64,000 nt of DNA from Octopus vulgaris (GCA_951406725.2 OX597814.1:162192001-162256000); one strand, 5' to 3'; counted from the first letter of the stretch, positions 2,780 through 32,400 are shown. The notes: generated by a model not told the origin, from the sequence alone. Numbers and translations: made by a program.

Positions 2780-3880
2780 CTCTGCCTTTCTTCATTTAGG
2801 GCACACGAGTTGGTCTGTCCAGGAAGTGTTTCCACTTGGATGCATCATGGGTGTGTTTCTGATTGGCTCATCAGCTGTGATCGAGCCTTTGATTTCAGTT
2901 ATCGTGAAGAGTCAGAGACTGAAGGGGAGATGGAGTGGTCAACTTTTTTAATGAGCACCTACTTGCCAACATGTATCTGGTGCTCAGTGGCATGGTTCCA
3001 TTTATCAAACAGGTGAATCATGCTGGATGAGCTGATTCTACATTGCTCTTGTTGATTTCATGTGAGGCACCTTGGTTGATACTGTGCAACTTAACAAGCT
3101 TTCTGTCGGGCTGACACCTGTTGTACTGTGTAGAGTTACACAGTATTTCAGCAGAATGTTGCGGACCGCATGTCTGGGGGCCCTGTCTATCAATGTAAGT
3201 AGTGTGGGTTACTTTGCCCAACACCCACAAAAGTTTTGGCAAATCCATTGCTGTCAAAGTGCTCTGGCTCAATGTACAAAACTTTGCTGTTTGGCATATT
3301 TCTGAAATTCCTGACTGGAAGGGAGGTTCATTTTTGCCTTTTATCACTTCTGGAATACTATGGGTGCATTACATTCTATGAAGCTTTGGAATCAAGTGGT
3401 CCACCTATGTTGTTATGACAATTTCCACTTCAGGGAAACGGCTGTACTTATCAGGGGAAAAAAAAGGAACTTTCTTCCAATAAATCCTTCAAAGTCCATG
3501 CACAAATTCTGCCATGGCCTTTCTGGAAGGCAGCTTGGTTTCAATGGATCATGGTGATGCTTTAAGACTTTATGGTTAGAAAAGCTTTACAGCTCGACAA
3601 ATTCTTTTGCCACTTTGTCCATATTGGGAAACAAGACTTTGCTTTGCAGGTATTGCTTTGATTTTGTCAGTCCTTGGTGCCCTTCATGGGCAAGTACAAT
3701 AACATCAGCTTGTATCATCTTAAGGATAACAAGATGAGTGCCCCTGAAAGCTAGTGATTTGTGAATAAATGTGTCTAAAAGGTTGTACTGCCAGGGTACA
3801 CTTCAATATGTCAACTTTAAGCATAGCTAGGGTGTTATCATTGTTGGTTTCCCTTTTCAACATTGATAGGTGTATCCATC
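2780..3880 (-). mobile_element. Degenerate Ty3/Gypsy LTR-retrotransposon pol fragment (integrase zinc-binding, core and C-terminus)
   Basis: Across frameshifts and stops the minus strand reads VLAHEGHQGLTKSKQYLQSKVLFPNMDKVAKEFVE, PLKPSCLPERPWQNLCMDF, DKYSRFPEVEIV, IPEVIKGKNEPPFQS (decayed SDNGPPF), VGK*VLIKK and THDASKWK. No LTRs recognised. Confidence 0.85.
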
Positions 3881-12658: not shown

Positions 12659-12992
12659 ATATATATATATTTATATATATAAAACAGTTTTATTGATTTC
12701 TTTAATCTATATAAACATTTGTGTACAGCTAGTAAGCCATGACAAGGAAGGATGTACTGTACCCCTTATATAAGAAACAAACAAAAAAGAAAAAGATGTA
12801 GAGAATAGTTAAATTTTTTTGAAGCTTCCATGAATTGGAAACTTTTACATTGGAGTAAATTACACTATGGTTTAAGTAGTCTCCACAAGAGTATAAAACG
12901 GTGATTCCATACAATAATACAAAAATGTACAAGAGAAATTTTAAAGATTCCAATGAAACTATATAAAAAAAAACAATAAAAGTGATTACTTA

Positions 12993-13439
<447 letters not shown>

Positions 13440-13911
13440 TCAAATTAACTTCACACCAGGGATTTTTTCTTTTTTTAACAAGGTTACACAAAACTCTAAT
13501 TTTACAACATACCTACCTTGGACAAGTCCCTCACTGTTATCAATTTTATGTAAATATTCTGTGTAACATTAAACTCAAGTTATGACAAAGTTATAACCAA
13601 AATACATATAGGGTATAGCATGGACCATGAAGTCAAAAATAAGATGGTTATGATGTTTGTAAGGGAATTAGAAATGTAGAGAGGAACATATAAAATAAAT
13701 GAATAAGAATGATTAATTAAAAGTGAATGCAAACTAAGAGTCTCACATTAGAAATTAAACAATGAGAACTTCAAAAAATATCAGGTTACACTTGAAAACA
13801 TGAACAGACGTTATTTTGCTGAATCTTCCAACTCGAACAAGAGCCAAAAAATATAAGTCAACAAAGGAATGCATGGCAGCTCAACTTGCATAAGAGAAAA
13901 ATCTCCCTTAA

Positions 13912-14115
13912 CCCTTTAGCATTCAGATTATTTATTCAAAAGTAATGTTTATTTATTCACACTGTTTTGAATTAAGCATGAATTATCTTGTAGATTCCAG
14001 ATTTCGATGATGTGACTTTATTTTTACAATTACAGTAGTGTAGGTGTGACAGACCAGCTCAACTTGGTTTCAAAATAAAACAGGTAGAATATTTCAGCCT
14101 AGTATGGCCAAAGGG
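13912..14115 (+). mobile_element. piggyBac-type MITE, family 1
   Basis: TTAA|CCCTTTAGCATTC...AAAGGG|TTAA; body shared with the copies at 16658, about 55385, 56561 and 59262. Confidence 0.8.
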
Positions 14116-15679
14116 TTAAGACACATCTTACAGTTTTCAATAAGAAAAGACATAATGAGCAAATATCACCATAGATACAGTTCCTGAACCAAAGAAAAAT
14201 GGTCACTGGTGTAATGCTTTTGATAGCAGACCAACTTGAACAAAACTAATCTAGAGCTAAACAAGATGATGAAACACTGGATGAAAGAATATTTCTCCGA
14301 AAAAGTTTATCCAGTGAAATATTACTAAACTTTAAATTTTGAATTCCAAATTTGTAAATATTTTCTATCAATTACAGGCATTTGAAAATTAAATTAACAA
14401 GTTTAAACTATATATTTAAATAACTCCCTCTCATGTTCTGACATCCACTTCTTTCATCCATAAAACTTCTGACTGCACACTACCTCTGACTTTTTTTTTC
14501 AAGACAATGCCATTGTTCTCACTCTCAGACAAAAGGCAGATGCCTGAAAAATCAGATTCTCCATTCTGCACAGAAACTGAACTCTTCTGGGAACAGAGTA
14601 AAATTGTCATTGAAGCAAATCACCACCTGCTTCCAAGGACTAGATTTTATCATAAATTTCATTAAAAAAAAAAAAAAAAAAAAAAAAGTGACATTTTTGT
14701 CATGAGAAAAACTTTCAGTTACAAAATTACTGCATAGCTTTAGTAAACAACCTGTATATTCATCCCTCAATCTCATGGTTTCGCTCTCATATATATATAT
14801 TTGTACAAATATACATAATATGCACTCTTCTTTAATGAGGCAGTACTCAGTGTGTAATAAGGATCTAAAGTTATTACAAACTTTATTAGAAATATCACAC
14901 TACAGCTATTTCAATAACATTTGACAAAAACACTTCATTGAAACAAGTGTAATGTGGTAGATAATAAAGACTGTATGTATATTTGGAACAACAAAATGAT
15001 ATTAAATGTGAAATAACTCAAGAGAAAGAGTTGTCCCAAAATTAAGGATCAACAAATTTCATGTGAGGCTATTTCTATTTCCTTACAAATTATCCTAATT
15101 CTAGAGATAACCGTTTGGGAATTTTTTAAGCACACATTTAAATTTCCCTACAGTGACAGTTGGCCTCTCTCCAACTTGACACTAATTTGGATCTGCCTCC
15201 CCACCCACCACCTACTTCTTAAGACCATATTGAAGGTGTATTGAAACAAAACAACAACAAAAGCACATGCAGTACCAGAAAGTGTAAGTTGAGAGTATAT
15301 TGCATGGGGAGGTTGGCTAGGCATCTCTCAGGGATAGACATTTTTTTCTTAAGTTCTTAACCATTAATTACTTATCCAACAACAAAACCAAACATAATTG
15401 TCTAACTCATTTATCATAAGGTCATCTCCAAAACTAACTTAGCCATATTAACTCTCATCCAATCCTTCCATCCATCCTATTCAATGTAGGAAGATATTCC
15501 TGAAATATTCCCCCTCCCGCACAACCTAACTATCTAAAGAAGAATGTAAGGGAAAAGCGTATGGCAGAAAGCTAATACAGTAGTAGCTGTAAAGAAATAT
15601 AAAGATGATATTTTGACCCAATGTTCATAGATAAAAATACACTAACTATAAAAATAGAACAAAATAGAAGCTGAAATCA

Positions 15680-15950
15680 TCAGTTCATGCTGAGGTACTA
15701 CTTTGAAGGGAAACTAGTACTTTGTTTTTAAACTAACATCAGATGTGAAGTGGTGATTAGGGACAAACAACATAAAGACACACACACAGATAAATACATA
15801 TGAAAAGCTTCTTTCCGTTTCATCTACCAAATCCACTCACATGGTCTTGGTTAGCCCAGGGCTACAGTAGAAGACACTTGCTGAAGCCGCTACACAGAGG
15901 GACTGAACCCAAGACCAATGGTTGAGTAGTAAGCTTCTTAACCAGAGTCA
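15680..15950 (-). mobile_element. Degenerate tRNA-type SINE
   Basis: ctaccaaatccactcac...gaagacacttg...gggactgaaccc matches the SINE at 50390-50827. Confidence 0.7.
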
Positions 15951-16657
15951 CACAAGGACTCTCTCAAATCTGATTCTATTCTTTAAAAACTGCTATAGTA
16001 AACAAAAGTGTGACCACAAAGAGAATAAATTCCTGCAAAAGCAAAATAAAGGTTTGAATACATAAATATTACAGATATATTTATATAGGCTTTATAGATA
16101 TATGATAAATAAATAAAAACGTTTAATAGTGTGAAGGGGGGGTTAAACTTGTATTCTGCAAAAGCTATCAATTACTCTTATATGACACTCCCAAGTAAGA
16201 TATTTTCAAGTAAAAGCTAATTCGTTTTATTTTCAAACCAGAAAGATCCTAACATTGCAAGAATCTCATTTAAATTTCCCCCAGACCATGCATATTTAGG
16301 GATGTTCTATCTTTTTCTTTTTAAAAATCAAAATCAGTATCGGAAACTAAATTGCATGATATTCTATTTTCATCGAAGCAATTCATCCTGCATGTCTATA
16401 CTTATGTGTACACATGCACAAGCTATTTTCAATATTGTCTATAGTAATTGTGCTAAGTCATCCATTTTTCAGTTAATTGCATGTTGTAGTAACAAGTGTC
16501 TATTGCTTCATTCTCTTCTTAGCACTGTTCCTAACTGAATGAACATAGCTTTATAGCAGAATATACTCCAACTACAACCTTCATTTTGGAAGGTTGTATC
16601 AAACATCTAAGGCTGCTAAACCAAAGAACTACCATTATTCTCTATAGTCATTTTTAA

Positions 16658-16877
16658 CTCTTCAGCATTTAAACAGGTCATATCCAACCCAAATATGTTA
16701 CCCTGTTTTATGTGCTAACCAGTCAGATCCAACATATCACACTTACCCTTCAATGCCATTTTAAAAATATATACAATCACATCAAAATTTCAAAGCTACA
16801 AAATAATACACAATTAATTAGAAAGAATTTGAATGAAAAAGCATTACATTTGACAGAATAATCTGAATACTAAAGGG
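16658..16877 (-). mobile_element. piggyBac-type MITE, family 1 (inverted orientation)
   Basis: TTAA on both sides, ends ...gaatactaaaggg; body is the reverse complement of 59262-59479. Confidence 0.75.
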
Positions 16878-17824
16878 TTAAATTACATGCTCCCTTATTC
16901 CTTTATCTTGGGAGTAAGCCTAAAGATAATAGATTGGTTCCTCTTAGAATTTAGTATACCTGATACATACAAGTTACTCTAATAAGAGAGATAAACAACA
17001 GAAAATAGAGGCCAGTAGGATGTTAAAATACATTCACTTAAGCAAATATTTGTTGTGCAAGTTACAGTAAAAAAAAAAAATGACATTCAAAAGACTAAAA
17101 TATAAATATGGAACTATAAATATTTCAATTATAATGAAATATATAAACACACACACACACATATATATATATATAAACACACACACACACATATATATAT
17201 AACCACTGCAAATAAAAATACTAATAAAAAGAAAAAAAATCTATATTCAATAAAAATTTCTATTAAAACCTTTTTAACCTATTTAGTTACTTATTTTTTC
17301 ATCTACAACTAAAAAACACTAATGGATAAACTTTTTAACCTAATCCTGAATTAAAAACAGCTTATAAAATCCCAATGGTTTTTCCTCGCCCACATCAGAG
17401 TTGTTTGTTTAAGGCCGAGTCTAAGCAATCAACTCATGAAAGGGGCTTTTACAACTGTCTAAGCAATCAACTCATAAAAGGCGCTTTTACAGCTTGTAGC
17501 AAAATTTACTAATCCAGTAATGCTATTTTATTACTAATCCAATAACTATGATTCATTTACACACTAGGAGATAACAAGTCAGAATTTCCCAATTCTTTCC
17601 AGCCACTGAGTTTGATATCAAATCAATCATACAGAAAGCATGCTTTATATTAATTAAAATTTTGACACACAAAGTTATCTATTGTTCATTATCTACATTG
17701 CAGATAAAGAAAAATACATTTAAAATTTTGATACATTCTCCCATATAAAATATAAATTGGCTACACAAATTGCAAGATCAATTACTTTAGAAATATATAA
17801 TTTTAGTGTGTATGTGTGTGTACC

Positions 17825-18185
17825 CATATGGTTGTGTAGTTAGGAAGTTTGTTTCCCAACCAGTTTGGATTTGGGGTCCAATCCCATAGTGTAGAATCTT
17901 CGACAAATGCCTTCCACTATAGACCTGGCTGACCCAAACCTAATGAATTTGATAAAGTCCATCATATATTCATATATGGGTGTATATTGGTCTTGTCTTG
18001 GCATTGCATGATAATTACAAACAAACATTGTCATTCCAGCTATATCTCTCCATGGGGTAACATTGTTTTGTTTATAAACAGCTAGGGTTGACAACAAGAA
18101 GGGCATCTGGCCATATAAAATTGTTTCTCAATGAATTCTTCTTGAACCATGCAAGCATAAAAAAGTGGGTATTAAAATGATGATA
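17825..18185 (+). mobile_element. Degenerate SINE
   Basis: Head ggttgtgtagttaggaagtttgtttcccaacca and tail gaagggcatctggccat...ccatgcaagcat...aaaatgatgat, as in the 39505-40330 copy. Confidence 0.6.
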
Positions 18186-19684
18186 TCCAACAGACATTCT
18201 AATTCACAGAAATACAAAACTGTAAATTGACGCTTTTCAAAATTTTATTTGAGAATAGAAAAATCTCAATTTAAATTATCTTGCAAGCAGAATTTTTTTT
18301 TCTAATTTGATACCTCCATAGTTGTTTATGTTTTAGAGAAGATACTCTTTCAAAGATCTTTTAATAATAGTCTTTAGAATTTGTTGAAATTATTTTTAGT
18401 TAAAACTAAAACACAAGAACTTAATCAGGCAATTAGCTTTTGTAAGATAATTTTTAAATTGTAGCCTCTATACCTTTTGCAAGAAATTCATAAAAATATG
18501 TTGAAGAATAAAAAGCAAAGAGAGATTGAACAAAAATGTTTAGGAGAGATAATCATTAATTTATTTAGACTAATCTATATATACAAGAAAAAAAAAAAAG
18601 ATTATCATCATTATCTTTTGATAACTGAAATCCAAAGACTAATGAGCTAGATTGAAAAACATTCATGCAAATACCAATTTTTCGTAAAACCTCAAAAGGT
18701 ACAAAGAACACAATTCACAAAATAAAGACCAAAAATATTTTTAAAACTCATTAAAATTTATCAAATACCACATCTAAAATATGCTATGATGAGATACTTA
18801 TAAAATTTAGTTTGGAATATTCAATAGATAACAAAAATAAAATGGCAATTTGATAAATGTTTAGAAAGAAATATTTGAAGTAAAACTAGAAAAATACTTA
18901 GTAGATTACTGATGCAGAGAAAACAGAAGGATATTATTGGCTGCATCTTTTTACAGCATTAGATATGTCAAGTAGAATAACATCACTAAGAAAATTATCA
19001 CTTTATCAATAGCCAGTTAAATTACTAACCATTCAATTGATAACTATTATATAAAAATTAATAGTAAATAAACATATAAACAGTATGTATAAGAATGTAT
19101 AAGTAAAACAGAAATAAAATGCAGAAATGTTATTCTCTTGAATCTAAGCAAGTCTGAGTTGAAGCATCTAAAATTATCTTCAACAAAATATTCTAAAAAC
19201 AATCAAAATATGCTACTGAAGAAAAGAGCGAGTGAAAAGTAGAATGCAGTGAAAGTGACAGAATGGCTGACTGAATCACCTGAGAAATGTAAATTAGCTG
19301 AGTCAACTACTTAAAAAGAAAATAGCTGTCACAAAATTTCAGCAATAACAATATAAAAAAAATATTCGTTTCTGAAAGAAAATGTAAGAGTAAACTTGAA
19401 AATAATTCCAAAAATGGGAGAAAAAAAAATATCGAGCTTGATTTCAAACAAATCTGCATGTTCAAACTTCCAGGAAGTCAAAACACAAGAGACATGAACA
19501 CACACAATTAGAAAAAACTTATAAAGTATATACTATCTCACAAATCGAGATAATTAGGGAAGATGAAATAATTTTTAATACAAATAAAAGCAAAACCATA
19601 AAGAAGATTCATGTTGGAAATAATAAAACTAATAACTGAAAGAAAAAAAAAAAAGATACAGAGAACAGCAATTATGCTGCTTAC

Positions 19685-19745
19685 CAGGAATAGAGTTATT
19701 AGTTGTCTCATAGCCAGCCCTAGCACCATTCCCTATCAGCCACAT
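19685..19745 (-). CDS. RXR: Putative alternative RXR first coding exon C, MWLIGNGARAGYETTNNSIP(D)
   Basis: accATG Kozak-like start, 20 open codons plus G, then a CTG|GTAAGC phase-1 donor, in frame with the 13408 acceptor. Lies in a locally GC-richer patch of an AT-rich intron. Confidence 0.5.
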
Positions 19746-22700
19746 GGTAGAAGTTGTTTATCAGCAGTAATGCTGCTGCTGCCTTTAACAAAATATACAA
19801 TTCAGATGAGTTTCAATTAGTGAATGAGGAGGACCACTGAAGGAGAACCTAATCAATGTGGAACAAATAGAAAAAAAAAATGGGCCCAGCTGACATTTTG
19901 CTGGCATTTCCACCAGCATTCAAAAAAAAGAAAAAGGAAAACAAAAACGAAAAAGTAGAGACGGTAGTGGAGATGTAGCAACTGATGCTAGTTGTATGGA
20001 AGGTGAGAAGTAACTAACTAGTGTGAGAGGAACAGTTGTAACAGTGCCAGTGAAAGATAGCTTGCCACTTCCAGGGAATTATATTCAAAATGTAAAGCTC
20101 AAATATTTACATACTTAGAAAATTGCTTTTAAAGATCTATAGTTTCTGTAAAAGAGTATCACTCATACTATCTTCCTTTCTATGTTCAGAAAATCACATA
20201 TACAAGCTGTCTCTTAGCTTCAAACATTCAGCAGAATATTTGTAGTGTAGCTAGTCTCTTACAAAAGCCTTAAGAAATATCACACAGGAAAAAGATAAAG
20301 TAGATAACATTTAACTGGACAGAAAACAATGCAATTTAGAGATAAATCAACTGAAGAATTTGGGATAAAAGACAGTAAAAAGAGAATATTCAGAGATGAA
20401 AAAATTTCAAATTGTCTTTCAGTTATTTAACATCAAAAAAGAGTAAGCAATCATAAATTGTTATCATTCATCAGAAGATATCTTGGAGAAAATTGTGTAA
20501 TGACTATAAAAATATACTTTTGCTCACATTTAGATAGAATTTTAAAGCACAATTTCAAGAATTTTCTATAGACAAGTTACATGTAGGAATAATTAAATCA
20601 AGAATTTCTAGATGGAGTTGATATTACAACTAGAATTTAAGAACAAAAGAACAAAGGTTTATTTTTTAAAATCTATATTATATGATAAAAACTATTAACC
20701 ACTCAATTTCATTCTCTAATTTGAGGAGACTAGACAAAATAGGAAAGCAAAATTCCAGTCAGTTTGAAGTCTCTAGGGTATTTTTACCTTCTCTGGGTGA
20801 AGGAAGGAATATTGGTAAAATAACCAAAATTTTTTTTCTTTTTTACTCTGCCATTAAGAAAATTTTACCTCCAGCAATGAGATATTGAAAACAATGGTAT
20901 AAAAATGATTAATGAAGAAGCTATGAAAAAGTTATATCATTTTTCTCCCCTTTCCAATATGGGAAACTGTTTTTCATTGTAATACTGTTGAAAGCTATTC
21001 CAGTGTTTCAAGATTAATTCTCAAACAGAAAACTTTAACAATAAACAGTGGAGTTAACTGAGGGGGGGGGGATGACTAGGACAGAGAGCTCATTAATGGA
21101 ATATTTTGAATCTTTGTGAACTGCTTATAGATTAAAGTAGCTAAGCAACTAGAAAAGAGAAAAAGTCTTTAAGACTGTTTAACCCAACAGAGAGAAAAAA
21201 AAAGGTTAATATTTTAATATATATTAGAAGTTTCATAAAGTAATGATTTATTAAAGCTTTCCCTAGCTTTAATAAATCAGCAATTGCCAATTACAGCTAC
21301 TTTTGATAAGGTTAGTCAATGAAAAGAAATAACCTTGGATTCTTAATAAGAATACAATGTATTAAAATTATTTGAGAAATTCTAATATAAGTTAAAAATT
21401 CAAATATCTATGATCAAGACTTTTCATTTTAGTAAAATAGACTTAACATTTGATAAGCTATCATCTGCATGCCAATTTACCAGAATATCTCACTCAGCAT
21501 GCAGCTTGTCCATGACAGCTACAGCATAAAAGACACATTTTAAGTCAAGCCTTCTCACTAACAGCAAGCAAACTAGGTTCTCAGCAATGAGCTGAATATA
21601 GAATTCTTAAATGTTTGATGCTATCTTAACTACATGTAGAGCATTGCTGCTGATAATTATTACAACATCCATTTTCATTCACTATTTTTTAAAAACATCC
21701 TTTAGCTTTACAAACAGTTCAAATGGAATTGGAGAAACATAATTATCATTTCGGTTTACTTGTTTTTGTAATTACATCCAGCTGTCTAGCTAGAACTGTA
21801 TTTAGATCCAAACAATGCACGATTAAAACCTAAAACTATTTACTTTAGATATATTTATCACATCATTCAGTTTTTCCTTTTCTTCCTCAAAATCTTTCTT
21901 TCTATACACATGCTCAAAAAGTAAAGAAATTCCAGTCAACACAAATAGTTTACCATAAATGATTCTAATCAGTGCCAGCACTAAAAATACTGATAGACTA
22001 AAATATTCTCATCAACATACATTAGGTTGCCAAGGTAGAAAAATTTAACTACCATTGATCTTGTAGTGAATGAATGCCATATCAATACAGCCCCACCACT
22101 GTTTGCATATTCTACACTTTGGTATTTTATACTCTGAACAAAAGTGTTTACTTTTTTTTTTTTTATCTTTTTTTACTGATGCTTACAGGTCATATCTACT
22201 AATAGCTGGATCTTTACCACAACTAGGTCATCTGGATACTGAAGAACCAGGCTTTTTTTTGCGTGTGCAACCACTATTTAAAAATAAATCTAATACAAAA
22301 CAACTAAGTTTATTTAGAGAAGAATATGAATTAAGAAAAATTTGTTTACGTATTTAAAAAAATGCAAAAGAAACTGCATGGATTATGCATCCTAATAAAC
22401 AATGTTGCCAACACAAATCCATTAAAAACTATGAATAGATGTATATCATTTATATCTATAATTAGCAGTTGATTTATTGGAGCTAAAGAGACTTCCAAAT
22501 TATATCGATTTGTTCACTGTTCCACTTATATGAAAAATTTAAAAACTAATAAATGATTAGACTACACATTCATGTCAAAAATAAATAGAATTACACATTT
22601 AGTAAAAGATTAATTTATATTTTTAAGAAATCTTCAGAAACAACTTTAAAAAATTCTTAACAATGTATTGGATATGAACCCAACCCCACTCCCTCTGTAA

Positions 22701-25700
22701 TAGGATAATTATAATTTCTTTAACTTGCAGCAAACACAAGATTATTGATTGAAATGAAAAAAATTCTTTATTCATTAATAGAAGAAAAGATCTACAGGGA
22801 AAGAAAACAGAAACTAAAATCTAAATAATACTATTATAGAACACAGGAAGAATATTGAATGAACCAAGATGAACAAATCTTTTACTGACTTCATTATTGA
22901 ACTATTGGCTATGCTAGGGTACTACCTTCAAGGATTTTAGTTTATATGAAACCCAGTACAGTGGTACTTATTAATAGAAAAAGAGAGCAAAGTAAATTTG
23001 ACCAGGTCAAAAAAGAGATGAATACTGCAAAGAGAAGGTGGCAGTGATTCTGCCAACTTTTCCTTTTATATACCCACAAACCTACACAGGTGCTACACTG
23101 TGAGATTAAACCCAGAACCCACCTTGCAATTGTGAATCACTTCTTAGCAACACAGCCATGTCTGTCTGTACTTATAGGATTTTTTTCTTCACAACTAATA
23201 CTATAACTACCATTTTTAGAAACAGTTAAAACAAGCAGCAACATTGAGGTTAGTTAATAAGATAGAATTTATTGTTCTATTTTGACACATCTTTAAGTAA
23301 TATATTACCACCTTGTAACTATAAAGATATATTAAGCAATTACTACAACCTTCACCATTGAAGCAATTATTGCTCCACAATATCAGATGCAACTCAAAGC
23401 CAACCCTCTTCTAATTATTAAAGTATACGCTATTTTTTTTCTCAGAAGATTATGTAGATGAAAAAGCTGTATTTTGAATGACATAGCAATAACAACAATT
23501 GCAATAAAACATATCTACAAAATACATTTTAATATCTATTGAACAAAAAAGAATGTCAGAATTGATAGCTATGTCATTTTTATAAAATTGTTAATTTTTT
23601 TCGTACAAAAATGTTGAGCTAGCATTTAAATTTAAGCTAGTTTATCAGACTGGACATAAAAGAATCTGAAGAAATATTTTCCAAATATAAATACTTGATA
23701 ATATGAGATGAAGAGATTTATTTAGCTTTTTTAAAGTTTCATGCGATTTTAGTGAAGGGGAAAATATCTGAAACAGCTGAAATATAATTAAGAAAAAAAA
23801 AAAACCGAGTTCAACATTTGCCCGCCCACTAATCTATCACTGATAAAGCATCTTTATCAAATTTTCACAAGATCCAATAAATACCATCTTATAATGAAAG
23901 TTTCTCAATCAAATAACAGAAAGGGTAAAACGTGGGAACTTTCAACCCATTTACAAAATACACCACATAAACATGTGCGTATGCACATACACACACAGAA
24001 ACATGTACAAATACATACAAACACAGAAACATACGTACACATACAAATACATACACACACACGATATACATAAGCATTCAGTTTATTTATTTTTTTAGTG
24101 TGAGGTGATGGCAAAATATAGTTTTTTGAGCTATCAGAATGTGTAGAGCACAAGCAGTCTCGAAGAAAAAGAAATCAGGAAAACAAATTATCAGAAACAA
24201 ATTTAAAAAATATAAATTTTTAAACTTCTCCATAAACATTAAGAATGCATATAAAAATATAAATTTGTAAAAACATTCAAATGCTGTATTTAGTTTTGCT
24301 TTACGTTCATTTTTAACTCACACAAAAATGTAGTTCAATAAAGTCAAACTTGAAAACCAAATCTGACCATAAATTGCTATTACACCACCTTTGGTTTTAT
24401 TTTAGTCTAACCTTTGGTATATTGATTGAGCCCCTCCCTAATCAATCCTGTGATTATTTTTAAAACGCAAGTCATTAAGTATCAAACAACACTTTTCTTT
24501 AATCAATATAAGTTGATATTAACACATTGTTGCATCATAAAATCCTGCTTTGAGATAAACTAAACATACAAAACTGAAACTTATATCTAAGTAGAAAAGA
24601 TTGACAATTTTGCAAATACATTTGCATAATCTAGCTTCTTAATAGTTCTTATTTTTTAACGTACATTTGACCGTATCAAACTACTCGATTCAGAGACACA
24701 ATGTCAATGACCAAGCTTGAAGTTTCTAGCCATCCACCTTTCATAATGGTTTAGCTAACCCATAAAATCTGACGACCAAGTAAATACAGCTTGAACTCTT
24801 CTATTCATATTTGTACTGCTGTTTCTTTATTCAGCCTATTGATTCAATTCTATAACAAGTTTCTGCTCTCGTGGAGATTGATTACAGTAGATTCATCCAT
24901 AGATCGAATATCAGTGCCGCTTTAATATCTTCCTCCCATGCCTACCGCTTGCGCTGAAAATAACGTGATAGCTTTTAACAAATTTGATAATCAGGTCAGA
25001 TTAGGCTGACTCAGGTGTCTCCTCAACATGCTGACATTCGCCAATTATACAAGATACATACTGGATGCTGCATACTGAACGGTCTTCGTAATAATAATAA
25101 TAATAATAATAAAGAAAGAAAAATAATATCATAGTATAATTTTTTTAAATCTCTACGAATGAAATTTCATGAAAATACACTTTGATAATGATTTGCTCTT
25201 ATTTAATTTCTTAGTAACGAGATCTAATGAAACGTCTCTAGTTCTGCATAATTACAATGTTCATTTCGGGAACATTCTTGGTGTTTCGTTGAGACACTTA
25301 GAAGAATCGTCTAAGTCTAGAGAACCGTAAATACCATTATCTTTACATCATTAACATCTCTAGAATCTAGATATTTGTAACAATGTTAAGTTACTATTGA
25401 ATAAATTAAATTGTTCTTCCACATCAAAGTATTTTTAAAACTCCACAACGGCCATCATGAGATTAATTCTCTACTTGAAATAATAGCATCTGCAAGCAAA
25501 ATCTTCGTGTCTGCGGTGGGGAACAGAATATCATGTAATTTAAATCCATGAGAAAATCTTAAAATGCAGATTTGGGGTGGGTGAGAGTACATTTGTTTTT
25601 TTTTTTTTATAAATCAAATAGGATTTAATTAGGACTCATATTAACCGGAATAATAGCAGGGGTTGGTTGGCAATATAGTAAAAAAAACATTAAAACTAGA

Positions 25701-28700
25701 AAATGAACATGAATTAATAAAAAGGCAAGCTTCCGCATACACTTCCGACTTGTGACATGCAAGTTTCCTAATGAGATCCTCTTGATCATCATGAACAGCT
25801 CATAGGTAAAGAGGGAGTCAGGAAGTCAAGAGTAGCTAGCAGAGCGAGATAACTAAATGTATATTAGAACAGATCCCCTATAAACAAGTCATTCATTAAG
25901 CATTAATGCATTATCAAGACTTCTGCTTGTCACAAAAGTAAAAAAAAAAAAAATTTAAAAGGCCACATAATCGTCGATTATTTTATTAAAGAGTGAAATG
26001 CTCAACCAAATGAATGAAATCTACATAATCTATGAAATTTATTGAATCCCCATACAACATGAATATCTTAGCATACAGTGATTTTTCAAAAATAATTAGT
26101 GGTTATATTCCATTTCAAAAATTTAAGTTGCTCACTTTAAAGAAAACTATCCTTGACAAATCTGTCGAAAAAGTAAATAAGATGAAAATCAAAACAAAAA
26201 ACTAATGATCTGAAACTAAAGACTTGTAAAGAAACTTCAACTGTTTTAATGAGCTTTCTTAACACAAAAAAAGCATCTCCAATGGGAAAATATATACCCA
26301 TTATCAACAGAAGACTCAAAAGCTACTATAAAAGTAAATAGCATTTTTGGGGAAAAAAAGAAGAAAAAAAATGAAAGAAAAAGGTGGGGTGGAATCATCT
26401 TATTGACTTCCTATACATTGACAATCCATGTTTAGAACGAAAGAAAGGAAACGAGAAAGTAAACAAGATATATCCTTTGACACAAGCAAAGAATTGAGTA
26501 AACTGTTCATGTGTTCGGCTGTGACGACAAACAATAACGGAAAATATAGTTTATTGTATACATAAAGCAGCTAAATTCTAGAAGTATCGAATTAAATCGA
26601 AACGAATTAAATGCAATATAGCCAACTTTTTTTTTTTTTAAATAATTCATTTTGGATTAATTTAAGTTGAGATATAAGTCTCAAAAATTAGCTTCACGTG
26701 GGTTAAGGGATTAATTTTTATGTCTTTATGTCGCTGAATTAAATGAGTCTGGGAAGTGATAGGCAAGGACCTATCATGATGGATCATAGAGCAATCAATC
26801 ATAGGTAAAATATAAAACCATTCTATATATATATATAATGGAGAGAGAGAGAGAGAGAGAGATGAACCATATTTGCATGCCTTATGCCTGCTTAGGAATA
26901 TAAATATACACATAAAGATTTCCTATCTCTAAAGGTATGCAAATAAAATGGTTCACCTATTAACTGGTTATGTTACACTTAATAAAACTTGTGGTTTCAC
27001 TTCGAAATAACGAAAATATGGTGGGGTTGAGACAAAGTCAGGCATGTCTTCAAATAAATATCTATCAACTACAATGTAAGTCATTACGACATTCGCATCT
27101 AAGTTAAAAGTCAATGACATCAGAGTTATTTTCCATTAAAAAAAAAAATAATCGAAACCTGTGTTTCGGAACATATCTAATTTTTGCCATACAAAACGAA
27201 GTGAATTTCTTCATGCTGTAAATGTAAATAGGATCGTCTTGTTTGCATCCGTCTATGAGCAGCGACATTAAACAATGTGAAACTATGTCATTTAAATGAG
27301 TAAGAAACAACGATATTGGAAAGCAAGCATTAAGAATCTAGACTTCTTTCCACAACAGCAAATATCAACAATAAGCAGTTCGCCTATGTGACTACATGAA
27401 AAAATGTGACACAGCAGCGAGCGAGAGAAGGAGAGAGAGAGATATAAAGTGAGAATGATTTCAAGTTTATATAGCAACTATATGATTTAGTAAGCGTAAA
27501 TTACCATTAATTCGGACTAGCTCTACTCCACTTGCCCCCTATCTCAACATAGTCGTATTTAGTTGATGGAATTGAGAGAAATAACAGCTTACTTTACAAC
27601 CATAAATAACTGTTCTCCACAGTTGGCTCTGCCATTACTATAAACATACACATAAATGTGCATATGTATATACATACATACACGTTCTTTTTATAACTCG
27701 ACTGTCTGAGACAGGTTGGCCTACATTTACTGTCGGGGTCCACTGATCCGAATATGCTTAAGCTGTTTCAATCCACTACACACAACATATTCTCCCAGAA
27801 ACGTGATATTATATGGACGATTCATTTTAGTCAGAAATTATTAAAATACGCTGATCCTACCCTATTTAACTGAACTTTAATCGAAATAAAAAATAAAAAA
27901 TTCTGGGAAAACGGTAAATATTTTTGTTCAGTGAATGAAAAATAGGAATATATTAAATATCTCATAACTGCTAAAAAGAAACTTTGAAGAATATCTTTTA
28001 TTAACCGTTCACATTCAGGTACAGCAATTTATTGGGGTATTATTAATATGGAAATTGGCAGATAATAGTGAAGCCAGTGGAATGAACGTGAAGCCGCAAA
28101 TGTCCAATAATTACCAGGCCGAAGACCTAATTCTAGCAAAAGAAGAGGGCGGATGGATGGATAGATGGATGAATATACATATATATATAAACAGCGGCTA
28201 AGAGTTAAAAGATATTAGTCCTTAGAATAGAAAAGGGAATTCCATAAACAACATCTATTGAAGTTCAGCGAGATATCACACTAGCTCGACGCAATGGATC
28301 GTGCATGTAGTATCAGTTATGCGTTATCTCTGAATAATATATAGCAAACAAACATTTCTAGAAATGATAATAGAGGCAGACAACACAAAGATGTTTACCT
28401 TTACAAGTAATATTGGGTTAGCAGAACACACGTGCCGAGAACACTTTATTTTGAAATGGTTTAAAATAGAAGATGAGATGATGGCGGCTACGAGATAGTC
28501 GACTCGACAATGCAGTGTATACACATACATTTCATAGCTGAATAAACGGAATTTAAATAGGGGATATGCTATTAAGATGTGATAAACGTCATAAAATTTT
28601 ATTATTATTAATAGTTACTAATTATAACTTGGTATAAACATCATATTCCACGTGTTTTACGGAGGCAACATACAATGTAGGGGGTAGTTGTGATATGTGT

Positions 28701-28818
28701 TATTATACTCCAATATCACATCATTTAACTTTGAAGCTTTTACAGATATGTAAAAAGACTCGCTGGGGAAAAGATATAAAGGCACACATTCAGGAGGCAG
28801 AAAAAAACAATTGCTTAC

Positions 28819-28837
28819 CTATGTCTGAAGTATCCAT
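28819..28837 (-). CDS. RXR: RXR first coding exon A, MDTSDI(D)
   Basis: ATG GAT ACT TCA GAC ATA G|gtaagc. The phase-1 donor joins AT ACT TTG GAC to give [15 protein letters not shown], resembling the MDxSE..DTL/DN N-termini I recall for other molluscan RXRs. Confidence 0.8.
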
Positions 28838-29449
28838 CTGGTCGAGAAATCGAAGCTAAGGGGAGGGGATTACGGACTGGACAACATACATTCACATAAA
28901 CAGTAAAATAGAGAGGTCAGTGTAGGAATAATAGAGTGATGATAGAGTAAGAGATAAATAGAGAGAGGGAGAGAGAGATAAAGAGAGAAAGACAAATAAA
29001 AGAAATGCAAGAGAGCAGTAAAAGTGAAATAAAAAGCGATTTATATTACTAAAAGCCTAAACTAAAGCATACATAATTATATATACTGTTGTGGAAAAAA
29101 AATACTATTTTATCCAACACAACCGCTTTAATTTTACCATGTTCTCTCAGTGTCTAGTTGGAGTGGTAGTATGAGTAACGTTTCCAATGGAAGTAGCAAC
29201 TACACAAGTGAGCAGGCAGCGGCCATGATAATGTGCAGGAGCACCGTCAACTTTCGTCAAAATACGGAGCTTTCAAATGTACGGATGATCAGACATGAAT
29301 AAAAATTCGTAACTAACATCAAAGAAGCAAATATTTTGAAAATAATAATTACATCAAATAATTAGATACAAAAAAAAATCCAAGTTAAATGTTATGTATT
29401 TTTTTTTTGTAGCTTGCATTAAATTTTTTTAAAAAGTTACATAACTTAC

Positions 29450-29486
29450 CAGGGTTTCTATAGTGTCCAAATGGTAAATGAGCCAT
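29450..29486 (-). CDS. RXR: Putative alternative RXR first coding exon B, MAHLPFGHYRNP(D)
   Basis: ctaaATGG start context, 12 open codons plus G, then a perfect CTG|GTAAGT donor in phase 1, in frame with the 13408 acceptor. Confidence 0.6.
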
Positions 29487-32400
29487 TTAGTTTTTCCTAA
29501 CGGCGATGTTCATATAGGAAGATGATCTAGAGAATTTTATAGTACTATAAGTCATCCGTCAACAAGATAAGCATACTGTAAGGCTATCATAAGAAGCGGC
29601 TGGTCTCTAGGAAACGCGGTAAAAAGTGTTGGGTGAAGAGTTCAAGGTTTGGGGAAGGTTGATGTATTTTAAAAAAAAAAAAAAAGCCACAATGATTGAG
29701 AGAGGTCAATACTTCATAGTATATAACTTGATAAATCAAGTATTTCTCAAAAATCGCTGAGTATCACTTACTCCTCATGAGATCAACGGAAATTTTAAAA
29801 AATATTAAAAGTCTGATTTGTTTTCAAATGTTTTTTTTTTCTTTCAATTATTAATTTTATATATATATACAAATATATATAAATGTATATAGAAAATAAA
29901 GTGCTCTAAAAAATTTAATACACGTGAATATTAGCAACTCTTCTACAAGTGGCTTCAGTAATCACGGACGAAAGGTGAATAGTCAATGTAATTTCCACCA
30001 TTATCTCTGTAAGAAAATTATAAACTCCTCAGAATAGTTCTAATAACTTTTTTTTTCAAGCATGTGTAGATTGATGAAAACAAAAAGAGTTTGAATGGAT
30101 TTTTTTGTTTTTCATAAGTAGTTTGTTTCCAATAAAAAAATAAAAACTTAATCAATAGTTGCTTCTGTTCCTCATTAATAAGTTGTTAGATGATGAACTA
30201 AGTAATCAAGGTCGTATGTAACAGTACCATAGAAACAGAGGCAGTGTTTTACCACCTACTTGATGCGGCCATTCAGCAATAATGAGAAAACCTTAAGTAA
30301 ACCACAGCTTGTCTCTTATTACTGACGAAAGCACTCTTCCTACCCCTCCTCCACTGACCCCCTCCCTCTCACTTGCGTGCCCTCTCTCCTCCCTCTGTCT
30401 CTGTCTCTCTCACTTGCGTGCCCGCTCTCACTCTCTCCTTCCCTCTCTATCTCTCTCTTCATAGCTCCACTTCCTCTAAATTTTCGTTCTACTTTTCTGC
30501 TTATTTTTATTTAAATTTGTTTCCTTTTTCTTTCATCTCTACTTTTCAGTTTCTTCACTCTTTCGCTCCAATTCAATTTTTTTTTCTTCCCTCTTTTATC
30601 TCTAACTTTCTTTCGTTGCTCAAACTCGCCTCTCTTTAAAAAAAGTATCTTCTTTTTTACTAAAACTAATTGTTTTTCTCTTTCAAATTTCATCTTCACA
30701 TCTATCTCCCTCTTTAATAACATTCTATCCATTTTGTTCGCCAACTATCCCAATCCTAATCACTATCCACCTCTCTATTCAAATTCTAAGTTTTCTTGTC
30801 CGTCACTCGCCCTCACCTTCTGGATACTTTATTTCTATTTTAGTAATAATTTTTTTCTCTCAGATAAAATAACATTCCGCTCTATTACCTCTCTCTCTAG
30901 TACTAATTTTTTTTAATTACTTACAAAAAAATAAAGAGAAAATAATAATTCCCTTCCTCCTATGGCTGCCACCTTTTTTCAGCACTTTTCGTCTCCATTA
31001 TAGACTTTACTGCATCTAAGTCATACTTTATTTCTGTTTTCTTTATTTTTCTTTCCGTTCCTATTTACCTACCTACCTTTACAACAGATACATGTACCTT
31101 CCCTATCTACCTACCTACTTACCTCACACTGCTCTCTGTGTCCCTTTTCTTTTCCTCTCCCACTACTGAATCACTTTTTTTTTTTATGGTAGAATTATAT
31201 ACTTTAAACTAAATGGTATTTAACTAATCCGAAAACCGCATTTATCATAATTATCGAAACTACCATCATCATCACACACTTGGCATTTATACAACGTCAG
31301 ACTAGCGGAAGACGACATAAGGGTTCGGTGATAATTTCTAAGGGAATGGAGATTGCGCGCCGGTTTCGGTTCTACAGGGCAAGCACTACACTATCGATAT
31401 TCCCCCATGGTGTACGGTGTGATAACGCATGAACTTCACTATATATTTATGTTCCCTATTATCAGACATCAAAGCACACAACACATACACACCCACAAAC
31501 GCACACATATCAACAGGTTTGGAGTCTCTTTCCTCCTCCCTTTTTTTAAAAGTATTTAATTTGAAGCTAAATTTACAAAATGTCCTAATTACTTGCAATA
31601 CTTGGCAAGCAGAAAACTGCATATTAGTTTTTGATTCCCAAGTGAAATGGTAATATAATACAGCCTACCTCTATGATAACTCCAGTGCCTTTGAGAAAAG
31701 TAATTTTAAACGTCATCATTTAATAATTTTCTTCCCTTATAACACGATGTCTTAGTGCTTGTGCAAGAAAATCATTTCAGCCTTGTTAACCGTTACAATG
31801 ATAGTTTTGATTAAAGTTGCAATATATTAGCAGGAAAATAATATTCTGTTGAATCTATACTGTCACAGTTGGTAGTTTATCCACCAAATGACGAGTGAAT
31901 GACTAAATTTATCCAATCAAGACTTTAACTCAGAAAGGAACAAGAAAATATAATATTGGAAAGCATTTTATCTGACCTTCCATTATCAGCTACTTCAGCA
32001 TCCAATTAATTTTGATAATGCGGGGAATATTGTAAGTTTTGTGGATCAAAAGAGTTATATCCCATCAAATGGGAGGCTAAACCCATAAAATAGGGAGTTC
32101 ACTTACTACAAGGAGCGTTAATTCTAATGTCTCAGCCTTTGTCCTTCATCTCAGACAAAAAGGCAAGAATGGCCCTTTCCTATTGATTAATTGTTGTTGA
32201 CACAGACCATTAACAGTTTCCTTGAATCATCAGGATAGCAAGGGTTCTCAGTATCTGGTGACAAAGACATTTTAGGCACCTTCACTTTAATTAACAGTCA
32301 ATATAGACCAGATGAAATTTTATGCCTCTTCATTCCTACAACTGTATTCTCTCCTTTCCCCCACCCTCTTGCTATACTTGTACTGCACATCTGGATTTAT

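What the first reader, a model, noticed from the sequence alone, without database searches (positions are those of the whole stretch)
19685..29486. Three mutually exclusive phase-1 first coding exons could give RXR three different N-termini
Seen: three short exons (28837-28819 MDTSDI; 29486-29450 MAHLPFGHYRNP; 19745-19685 MWLIGNGARAGYETTNNSIP) each start with ATG, are stop-free and end G|GTAAG. Each supplies the single G that completes the Asp codon with the AT opening the 13408 exon. Their coding lengths (19, 37, 61 nt) are all 3n+1, so they cannot be chained in frame and would act as alternatives. Known: vertebrate RXRs and insect USP use alternative promoters to vary the AF-1 region. Inference: a multi-promoter AF-1 switch in a cephalopod RXR; I do not know of it being described.
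Basis: partly seen in the sequence, partly recalled or inferred. Interest (0 to 1): 0.75.

Follow-up and report, generated by a model that had tools for sequence, protein, structure and literature searches.

The report
Octopus RXR with swappable start exons
The octopus retinoid X receptor gene has three short candidate start exons that are already in public gene models, plus a fourth one about 450,000 bases upstream that likely joins the same gene and encodes a short peptide shared by octopods, snails and bivalves whose role is untested.

Summary
All three N-termini are already in NCBI Octopus RXR models, so they are probably real and not new. They are not equivalent. MDTSDI is the ancestral start, with matches in snails, bivalves and a nemertean. 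MAH and MWL occur only in Octopus records. MAH and MDT sit in a CpG-rich island (o/e 0.74). MWL sits in CpG-depleted DNA (0.14) behind a strong acceptor-like site, so it is likely an internal cassette exon, not a third promoter. It is 23/23 identical to the Argonauta RXR N-terminus and on average 76% identical to 17 gastropod and bivalve RXRs, against 46% for the rest of the A/B region. My paper searches did not find it described. No junction reads were obtained. Verdict: a known kind of isoform switch with one overlooked, deeply conserved exon.

The parts
29450..29486 (-). MAH coding start exon segment (37 nt, phase 1); Octopus-restricted alternative N-terminus; inside the CpG-rich island
   Evidence: Sequence; starts P0116 (O. 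vulgaris CAI9716262.1) and P0118 (O. bimaculoides XP_052827775.1); single copy in G000
28819..28837 (-). MDT coding start exon segment (19 nt, phase 1); ancestral MD-type N-terminus; ATG directly follows a pyrimidine tract plus CAG (possible acceptor)
   Evidence: Sequence; starts P0001, P0117, P0122; MD-type starts in gastropods, bivalves, chiton and Lineus
19685..19745 (-). MWL coding segment (61 nt, phase 1); Octopus-restricted
   Evidence: Sequence; starts P0113 (O. bimaculoides X2) and 5 O. sinensis models; single copy in G000
19685..19848 (-). Predicted full MWL cassette exon (164 nt from the acceptor-like site ending 19849; 152 nt from 19837); a phase-1 upstream frame stops at exon nt 29 or 17, ahead of the MWL ATG
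   Evidence: Rough acceptor score at the 99.3rd percentile, true acceptors 97.7 and 99.5; CpG o/e 0.14 around it; inferred, no reads
24001..31500 (.). CpG-undepleted island (o/e 0.74; flanks 0.17 and 0.25); likely unmethylated promoter region for MAH and MDT
   Evidence: reading based on octopus gene-body methylation (PMC9476566, passages)
12994..13408 (-). Shared RXR exon: A/B region and first zinc finger; also holds a downstream ATG at 13391 (MPSVSS start). It is also the likely acceptor for a fourth start exon, MVAN (70 nt, phase 1), which lies outside the window at G000:C1:162659618-162659549 (L002 1581-1512), 454,141 nt upstream
   Evidence: MPSVSS starts P0110, P0111, P0112, P0123; MVAN exon: 23 aa equal to the N-terminus of Argonauta RXR P0002
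233..391 (-). Next RXR exon: second zinc finger (CEGCKG ... MKRE)

Best explanation
This is the 5' end of the octopus RXR gene, where several short ATG-bearing exons ending in phase 1 are likely spliced, one per mRNA, onto a shared exon at 13408, which would swap the first 6-23 residues of the receptor's A/B region. Shown: the exons, their frames and the matching annotated isoforms. Inferred, two ancient starts: MDT, likely from the CpG-rich promoter island at 24-31.5 kb, and MVAN, likely from a distal promoter about 454 kb upstream. Inferred, two Octopus-restricted additions: MAH, likely a second start in the same island, and MWL, more likely an internal cassette exon whose inclusion would stop the upstream frame early and supply a new ATG about 75 nt later. 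The MVAN peptide is likely a short linear motif (cofactor docking, localisation or turnover signal) that gives its isoform distinct regulation; I put that step at about 0.4. MAH and MWL probably act mainly through 5'-UTR and promoter choice rather than through their peptides.
For: Frames open for all three joins. All three N-termini are among the 15 listed of 29 Octopus cluster members: MDT 3, MAH 2, MWL 6, MPSVSS 4. The residue at the junction in 138 of 177 mostly molluscan RXRs with a recognisable junction is D 123, E 8, N 3, H 2, Y 2; D/N/H/Y differ only in the first base, as a phase-1 join predicts. MVAN exon found once in G000, same strand, E 3.7e-7, 70 nt, with a GT donor. MVAN heads RXR models of Argonauta, gastropods and bivalves; three unspliced read-throughs continue IT-G, the mark of the same G|GT donor. 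Mean identity to the Argonauta peptide is 0.76 over 17 representatives, against 0.46 for the rest of A/B and 0.97 for the DBD. No assembly N in the 564 kb examined; no cellular gene recognised among 100 selected ORFs in the interval, only transposon domains above cut-off. CpG o/e 0.76 around MAH/MDT and 0.14 around MWL; MWL acceptor-like site at the 99.3rd percentile, a strength found upstream of 12 of 151 sense and 8 of 182 antisense donor-like sites.
Against: No junction read was obtained for any of the four joins, so splicing in this animal rests on gene models. The O. vulgaris models may come from the same assembly as the window and are not independent conservation. None of the 15 listed Octopus models starts with MVAN (14 members were not listed). 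The ATG-donor pattern is a 25-33% chance event. Vertebrate RXR-alpha models show 24 largely unrelated N-termini before the equivalent junction, so automated models of this kind are often opportunistic. CpG depletion resumes at 31.5 kb and ends sharply near 158.5 kb, not at the MVAN exon, which this model does not explain directly. The acceptor score is my own rough one. Only 100 of 746 candidate ORFs in 13-170 kb, and none of the short ORFs beyond 170 kb, were scanned for a nested gene.
Confidence: 0.68

Rival explanations
1. One reading: all three exons are true first exons with their own promoters, and all three peptides are functional AF-1 variants.
For: All three are in gene models. MAH and MWL peptides are unchanged between the window and O. 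bimaculoides, a split put at about 34 million years (10.1101/2023.05.16.540928, passages). Tissue-specific promoters can be CpG-poor (own knowledge).
Against: MWL lies in CpG-depleted DNA behind a strong acceptor-like site. MAH and MWL occur in no non-Octopus protein among 263 stored. The start of the shared A/B exon is also identical among the Octopus models, so identity at this distance is modest evidence of selection on the peptides.
Confidence: 0.17
2. MAH and MWL are minor 5'-UTR exons whose ATGs are in frame by chance. They act as upstream ORFs or poison exons that tune RXR output or shift initiation to the ATG at 13391; only MDT and MVAN make real protein.
For: The pattern arises in 25-33% of such donors. 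Chained forms stop early. MWL has no G at +4 and MAH has no purine at -3. 4 of 15 listed models start at MPSVSS. Other molluscs have their own unrelated minor starts.
Against: ATG, open frame and donor phase are kept across Octopus species for both exons. 5 of the 7 listed O. sinensis models use MWL.
Confidence: 0.3
3. The MVAN exon is conserved for a DNA or RNA reason (an overlapping enhancer, promoter or splicing element), or no longer splices to RXR in Octopus, and the peptide has no special role.
For: It is 454 kb away and absent from the 15 listed Octopus models. It is 23/23 identical among six gastropod genera, unusually rigid for a disordered peptide. No DNA from other molluscs was available to test synonymous sites.
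Against: Changes between classes are mostly conservative around a fixed pattern MVAN.....T.S...GL.IP.I. with fixed length and phase. In this genome the ATG, frame and donor are intact and equal to the Argonauta model, which joins it to the shared exon.
Confidence: 0.2

Closest known systems
Vertebrate RXR alpha/beta/gamma N-terminal isoforms
   Same: One gene gives several A/B regions through alternative promoters, splicing or start sites (PMC3774650 introduction; PMC13262680 passages). RXR-alpha models vary just ahead of D-FSTQVNS, with D 23 times and Y once in 24, again fitting a phase-1 join.
   Different: No sequence likeness of MAH, MWL or MVAN to the vertebrate N-termini seen; the MVAN profile hit only molluscan-type sequences. 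Promoters and AF-1 activity are mapped in vertebrates and untested here.
Insect USP isoforms differing in the A/B region
   Same: N-terminal variation on a shared DBD and LBD (PMC3774650 introduction; listing only).
   Different: Different peptides; here at least four starts are spread over 454 kb.
Described molluscan RXR isoforms (Chlamys farreri a-d, Crassostrea gigas RXR-1/-2, Nucella, Thais/Reishia)
   Same: Same gene, alternative splicing; Octopus models also vary after the DBD.
   Different: The published isoforms differ only by T-box insertions (PMC3774650 part 1 of 4; PMC5398557 passages). The named cloned-type records P0006, P0046, P0059, P0134, P0147, P0204, P0205 and P0209 all start with the MD-type exon. 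One such record, P0028 (Parafossarulus), starts with MVAN.
NCBI/GenBank Octopus RXR isoform models (XP_029641195-202, XP_052827768/775, CAI9716262-267)
   Same: They already hold the MDT, MAH, MWL and MPSVSS starts.
   Different: They are automated models with no functional study found; none of the 15 listed holds MVAN.

Membership tests
RXR (NR2B) | C4 zinc-finger DBD with P-box CEGCKG and RXR-like sequence | tested here: met
   Exons 13408-12994 and 391-233; 100% match to O. sinensis RXR
RXR (NR2B) | RXR ligand-binding domain downstream in the same gene | tested here: met
   Four exon matches at G000:C1:162116456-162132312, same strand, 87-98%
RXR (NR2B) | Binds 9-cis retinoic acid and heterodimerises | not testable with these tools
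   Reported for other molluscs (PMC12965858 passages)
Alternative first-coding-exon isoforms of nuclear receptors | Several ATG exons with the same phase onto one shared exon | tested here: met
   Four exons, all phase 1; the three in the window join in frame
Alternative first-coding-exon isoforms of nuclear receptors | Each join exists in mRNA | tested here: inconclusive
   Gene models hold three of the joins in Octopus and the fourth in Argonauta and other molluscs; contig laying gave no usable junction
Alternative first-coding-exon isoforms of nuclear receptors | Each exon has its own promoter | tested here: inconclusive
   Indirect only: CpG island at MAH/MDT, none at MWL; MVAN lies in a broad undepleted domain
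Alternative first-coding-exon isoforms of nuclear receptors | Isoforms differ in AF-1 activity or tissue pattern | not testable with these tools
   Needs reporter assays and tissue RNA

The most novel reading that the evidence does not exclude
Gastropods, bivalves and octopods share a second, ancient RXR isoform, started from a distal exon (454 kb away in octopus), whose 23-residue MVAN peptide is a conserved binding or targeting motif. It has been missed because nearly all cloned and assayed molluscan RXRs carry the MD-type start. It could change how RXR responds to retinoids and organotins, or where it sits in neurons (Lymnaea RXR is non-nuclear in adult CNS, PMC9406730, and Lymnaea has an MVAN model, P0005).
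Probability: 0.35. Interest if true: 0.68.

Novelty: new member of a known kind. Interest (0 to 1): 0.42.

Why it matters
RXR is the target through which organotins cause imposex in snails and a main retinoid receptor of molluscs (PMC13262680, PMC12965858, passages). The papers I read describe molluscan isoforms only at the T-box. A class-spanning N-terminal isoform with a strongly conserved peptide gives a direct test: clone the MVAN and MD forms and compare activity, partners and localisation. The three exons in the window add little beyond existing gene models, apart from the prediction that MWL is a start-switching cassette exon.

Tried and rejected
RNA evidence: one search listed no holder on record as RNA (14 holders guessed RNA); 'no RNA holder listed'. 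Contigs of 4 runs laid on 12900-26200 were swamped by repeat matches and showed no exon junction; tables were cut, so this is no evidence either way. The MAH and MDT exons were not covered by any laying. Related genomes: none held for this genome. MVAN inside the window: not found by ungapped six-frame scans; MWL is not a diverged MVAN, since the true exon lies upstream. A single-sequence search with P0002 1-40 returned only itself. Transposon origin of MAH or MWL: each region matched only itself in G000 (that search skips common words). A nested gene between 31.5 and 160 kb: 100 of 746 ORFs scanned; above cut-off only mariner-type and reverse-transcriptase domains. Predicted docking of the MVAN peptide (P0002 1-32) on the RXR LBD: no answer, score 0.02, no evidence for or against. 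Protein-atlas look-up gave no result. Papers: 9 searches answered; none listed a study of N-terminal RXR isoforms in molluscs or cephalopods; the library lacks most subscription journals, and figures and supplements were not seen. Earlier scan findings: none on this locus; 8 shown of 37 concern other genes. In one search the exon-3 acceptor was scored at a wrong position; one search gives the corrected value.

Full report
1. Observation. Each runs from ATG to G|GTAAG without a stop. Joined to the exon 13408-12994, each gives an open frame through D-TLDSSMPS. The pattern itself is weak evidence. In the window 6 of 14 minus-strand G|GTAAG sites upstream of 13408 pass it, and 3 of 7 on the other strand. 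Over 13409-467700 (window numbering extended into the adjoining genome) it is 21 of 63 sense against 21 of 83 antisense.

2. The gene. The shared exon matches O. sinensis RXR at 100%. The second zinc-finger exon is at 391-233, and four hinge/LBD exon matches lie 60-76 kb beyond the window's low end on the same strand. This is an Octopus RXR gene.

3. The three N-termini are already in public models. Of 29 members of the Octopus cluster, 15 were listed. Three start MDTSDI (O. sinensis X5; O. vulgaris CAI9716263/4), two MAH (O. vulgaris CAI9716262; O. bimaculoides X3), six MWL (O. bimaculoides X2, 20/20; five O. sinensis models, 19/20) and four at the downstream MPSVSS ATG, which lies at 13391. 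The O. vulgaris models may come from the same assembly as the window, so I count only the other species as conservation. [quoted passage not shown] These are automated models; I obtained no junction reads.

4. The junction is an old swap point. Among 177 mostly molluscan RXRs, 138 had a recognisable junction. The residue there is D 123, E 8, N 3, H 2 and Y 2. D, N, H and Y differ only in the first base, as expected if upstream exons supply one base (inference). MD-type starts occur in gastropods, bivalves, chitons and the nemertean Lineus, so MDT is the ancestral start. MAH and MWL occur in 2 and 6 of 263 stored proteins, all Octopus. Other lineages have their own private starts, and vertebrate RXR-alpha models show 24 varied N-termini before D/Y-FSTQVNS. 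Young, possibly opportunistic start exons are therefore usual for this gene.

5. The three exons differ in context. CpG o/e is 0.74 in 24001-31500, which holds MAH and MDT, against 0.17 in 13409-24000 and 0.25 in 31501-64000; within 1 kb of MWL it is 0.14. In octopus, methylation is enriched on gene bodies and scant at promoters (PMC9476566, abstract and passages). The island is therefore likely a promoter region and MWL likely lies in methylated gene body (inference). An acceptor-like site ends at 19849, 103 nt before the MWL ATG. On my rough score it ranks at the 99.3rd percentile of minus-strand AGs, beside the true acceptors at 97.7 and 99.5; 12 of 151 sense and 8 of 182 antisense donor-like sites have one that strong. 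Spliced in after MDT or MAH, this 164-nt exon would stop the upstream frame at its nt 29 and offer the MWL ATG at nt 103. That would be a start switch by reinitiation or leaky scanning, or a decay-inducing exon. The MDT ATG also follows a pyrimidine tract and CAG (95th percentile); MAH spliced onto it is out of frame. So 'cannot chain in frame' does not prove three separate promoters.

6. A fourth exon, outside the window. Homolog searches showed a recurring N-terminus, MVAN...IT-D, on RXRs of Argonauta, gastropods and bivalves. It is not in the window. A search of the own genome found it once, at G000:C1:162659618-162659549 (L002 1581-1512), same strand, E 3.7e-7. It is a 70-nt, phase-1 exon ending CAG|GTGAGA, 454,141 nt from the 13408 acceptor, and 23/23 identical to the Argonauta model. 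Against 17 gastropod and bivalve representatives it averages 0.76 identity; the rest of the A/B region averages 0.46 and the DBD 0.97. The fixed pattern is MVAN.....T.S...GL.IP.I.. A profile search gave 15 hits: 10 molluscan RXRs, 4 short proteins carrying the exon without RXR domains (three continue IT-G, the read-through of a G|GT donor) and one chance hit. The motif is in 49 of 263 stored proteins. It was not seen in the listed models of chitons, heterodont bivalves, Aplysia, Elysia, Lingula or two nemerteans; absence from models is weak evidence. The 564 kb examined has no N. 100 of 746 candidate ORFs in 13-170 kb gave only transposon domains above cut-off. None of the 15 listed Octopus models uses MVAN, so the join in this animal is inferred.

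7. Mechanism. Shown: exons, frames, phases, models, conservation, CpG pattern. Inferred: promoter and splice choice decides which phase-1 donor reaches 13408, swapping 6-23 residues on the A/B region. MDT and MVAN are the old, conserved forms; MAH is a younger start in the same island; MWL is a younger cassette. I think the MVAN peptide is most likely a short linear motif for a cofactor, for localisation or for turnover (about 0.4), because it is far more conserved than its surroundings. A DNA-level constraint is not excluded, since I had no DNA from other molluscs. A sharp CpG boundary near 158.5 kb (0.29 below 160 kb, 0.83 above) may mark a further, non-coding promoter; I did not identify its exon.

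8. What is known. Vertebrate RXRs and insect USP vary the A/B region (PMC3774650, part 1 of 4; PMC13262680, passages). Described molluscan isoforms differ at the T-box. A 2025 review's inventory records RXR studies in bivalves, gastropods and chitons, not cephalopods (PMC12965858, passages). Lymnaea RXR is non-nuclear in adult neurons (PMC9406730, passages). Nine paper searches listed no study of molluscan N-terminal RXR isoforms or of the MVAN peptide. Subscription journals, figures and supplements were not seen, and P0028 (Parafossarulus) shows that an MVAN form has been deposited.

9. Verdict. Observation confirmed; interpretation partly supported. The finding as given is an ordinary kind of isoform variation already captured by automated annotation. 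The added value is the distal MVAN exon and the cassette reading of MWL. Novelty: new member of a known kind. Interest 0.42.

Noticed in passing
L002 1581-1512 (-); G000:C1:162659618-162659549: Fourth RXR start exon (MVAN, 70 nt, phase 1), outside the window, 454 kb upstream of 13408; conserved in octopods, gastropods and bivalves. It is treated in the main report.
   Followed up: yes
G000:C1 near 162,350,500 (L012 about 4500; extended window position about 158,500): Sharp CpG o/e boundary: 0.29 over 31.5-160 kb, 0.83 over 160-468 kb. It may mark another promoter with a non-coding first exon, perhaps the source of MPSVSS-start or MWL transcripts, or the end of an unrecognised gene.
   Followed up: partly
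window 31123 (-): Strong donor-like site GAG|GTAAGTAG at the upstream edge of the CpG island with no phase-1 ATG frame; candidate non-coding first exon.
   Followed up: no
window 16759-16747 (-): A further ATG/phase-1 G|GTAAG match (MALK) in the same intron, in CpG-poor DNA and in no listed model; likely chance.
   Followed up: partly
P0001, P0110-P0123: Octopus RXR models also vary by short insertions after MKRE at the T-box and by an insertion after YIDTQ in the LBD, like the T-box isoforms of other molluscs.
   Followed up: no
P0124 and P0003 (unnamed, about 92% identical to Octopus RXR): A related cephalopod-like RXR has yet another start, MAVYHLIRSG-Y, besides MDSSDI; no good match in the window.
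   Followed up: partly
G000:C6:40,512,955-40,529,429 (+): Many nuclear-receptor zinc-finger matches within one open frame of 2990 aa and nearby; possibly the multi-DBD gene listed as e1-8663334; not checked.
   Followed up: no
window 13908-14009 and 16780-16881: 102-nt inverted pair, 77% complementary, a common repeat that dominated the contig laying.
   Followed up: no
window 3000-3800 (-) and L006:7668-8276, L004:6675-6923, L003:2800-2943: Transposon fragments in the RXR introns: mariner-type and reverse-transcriptase domains by Pfam for the three loci; the window stretch looks retroelement-like by eye only.
   Followed up: no
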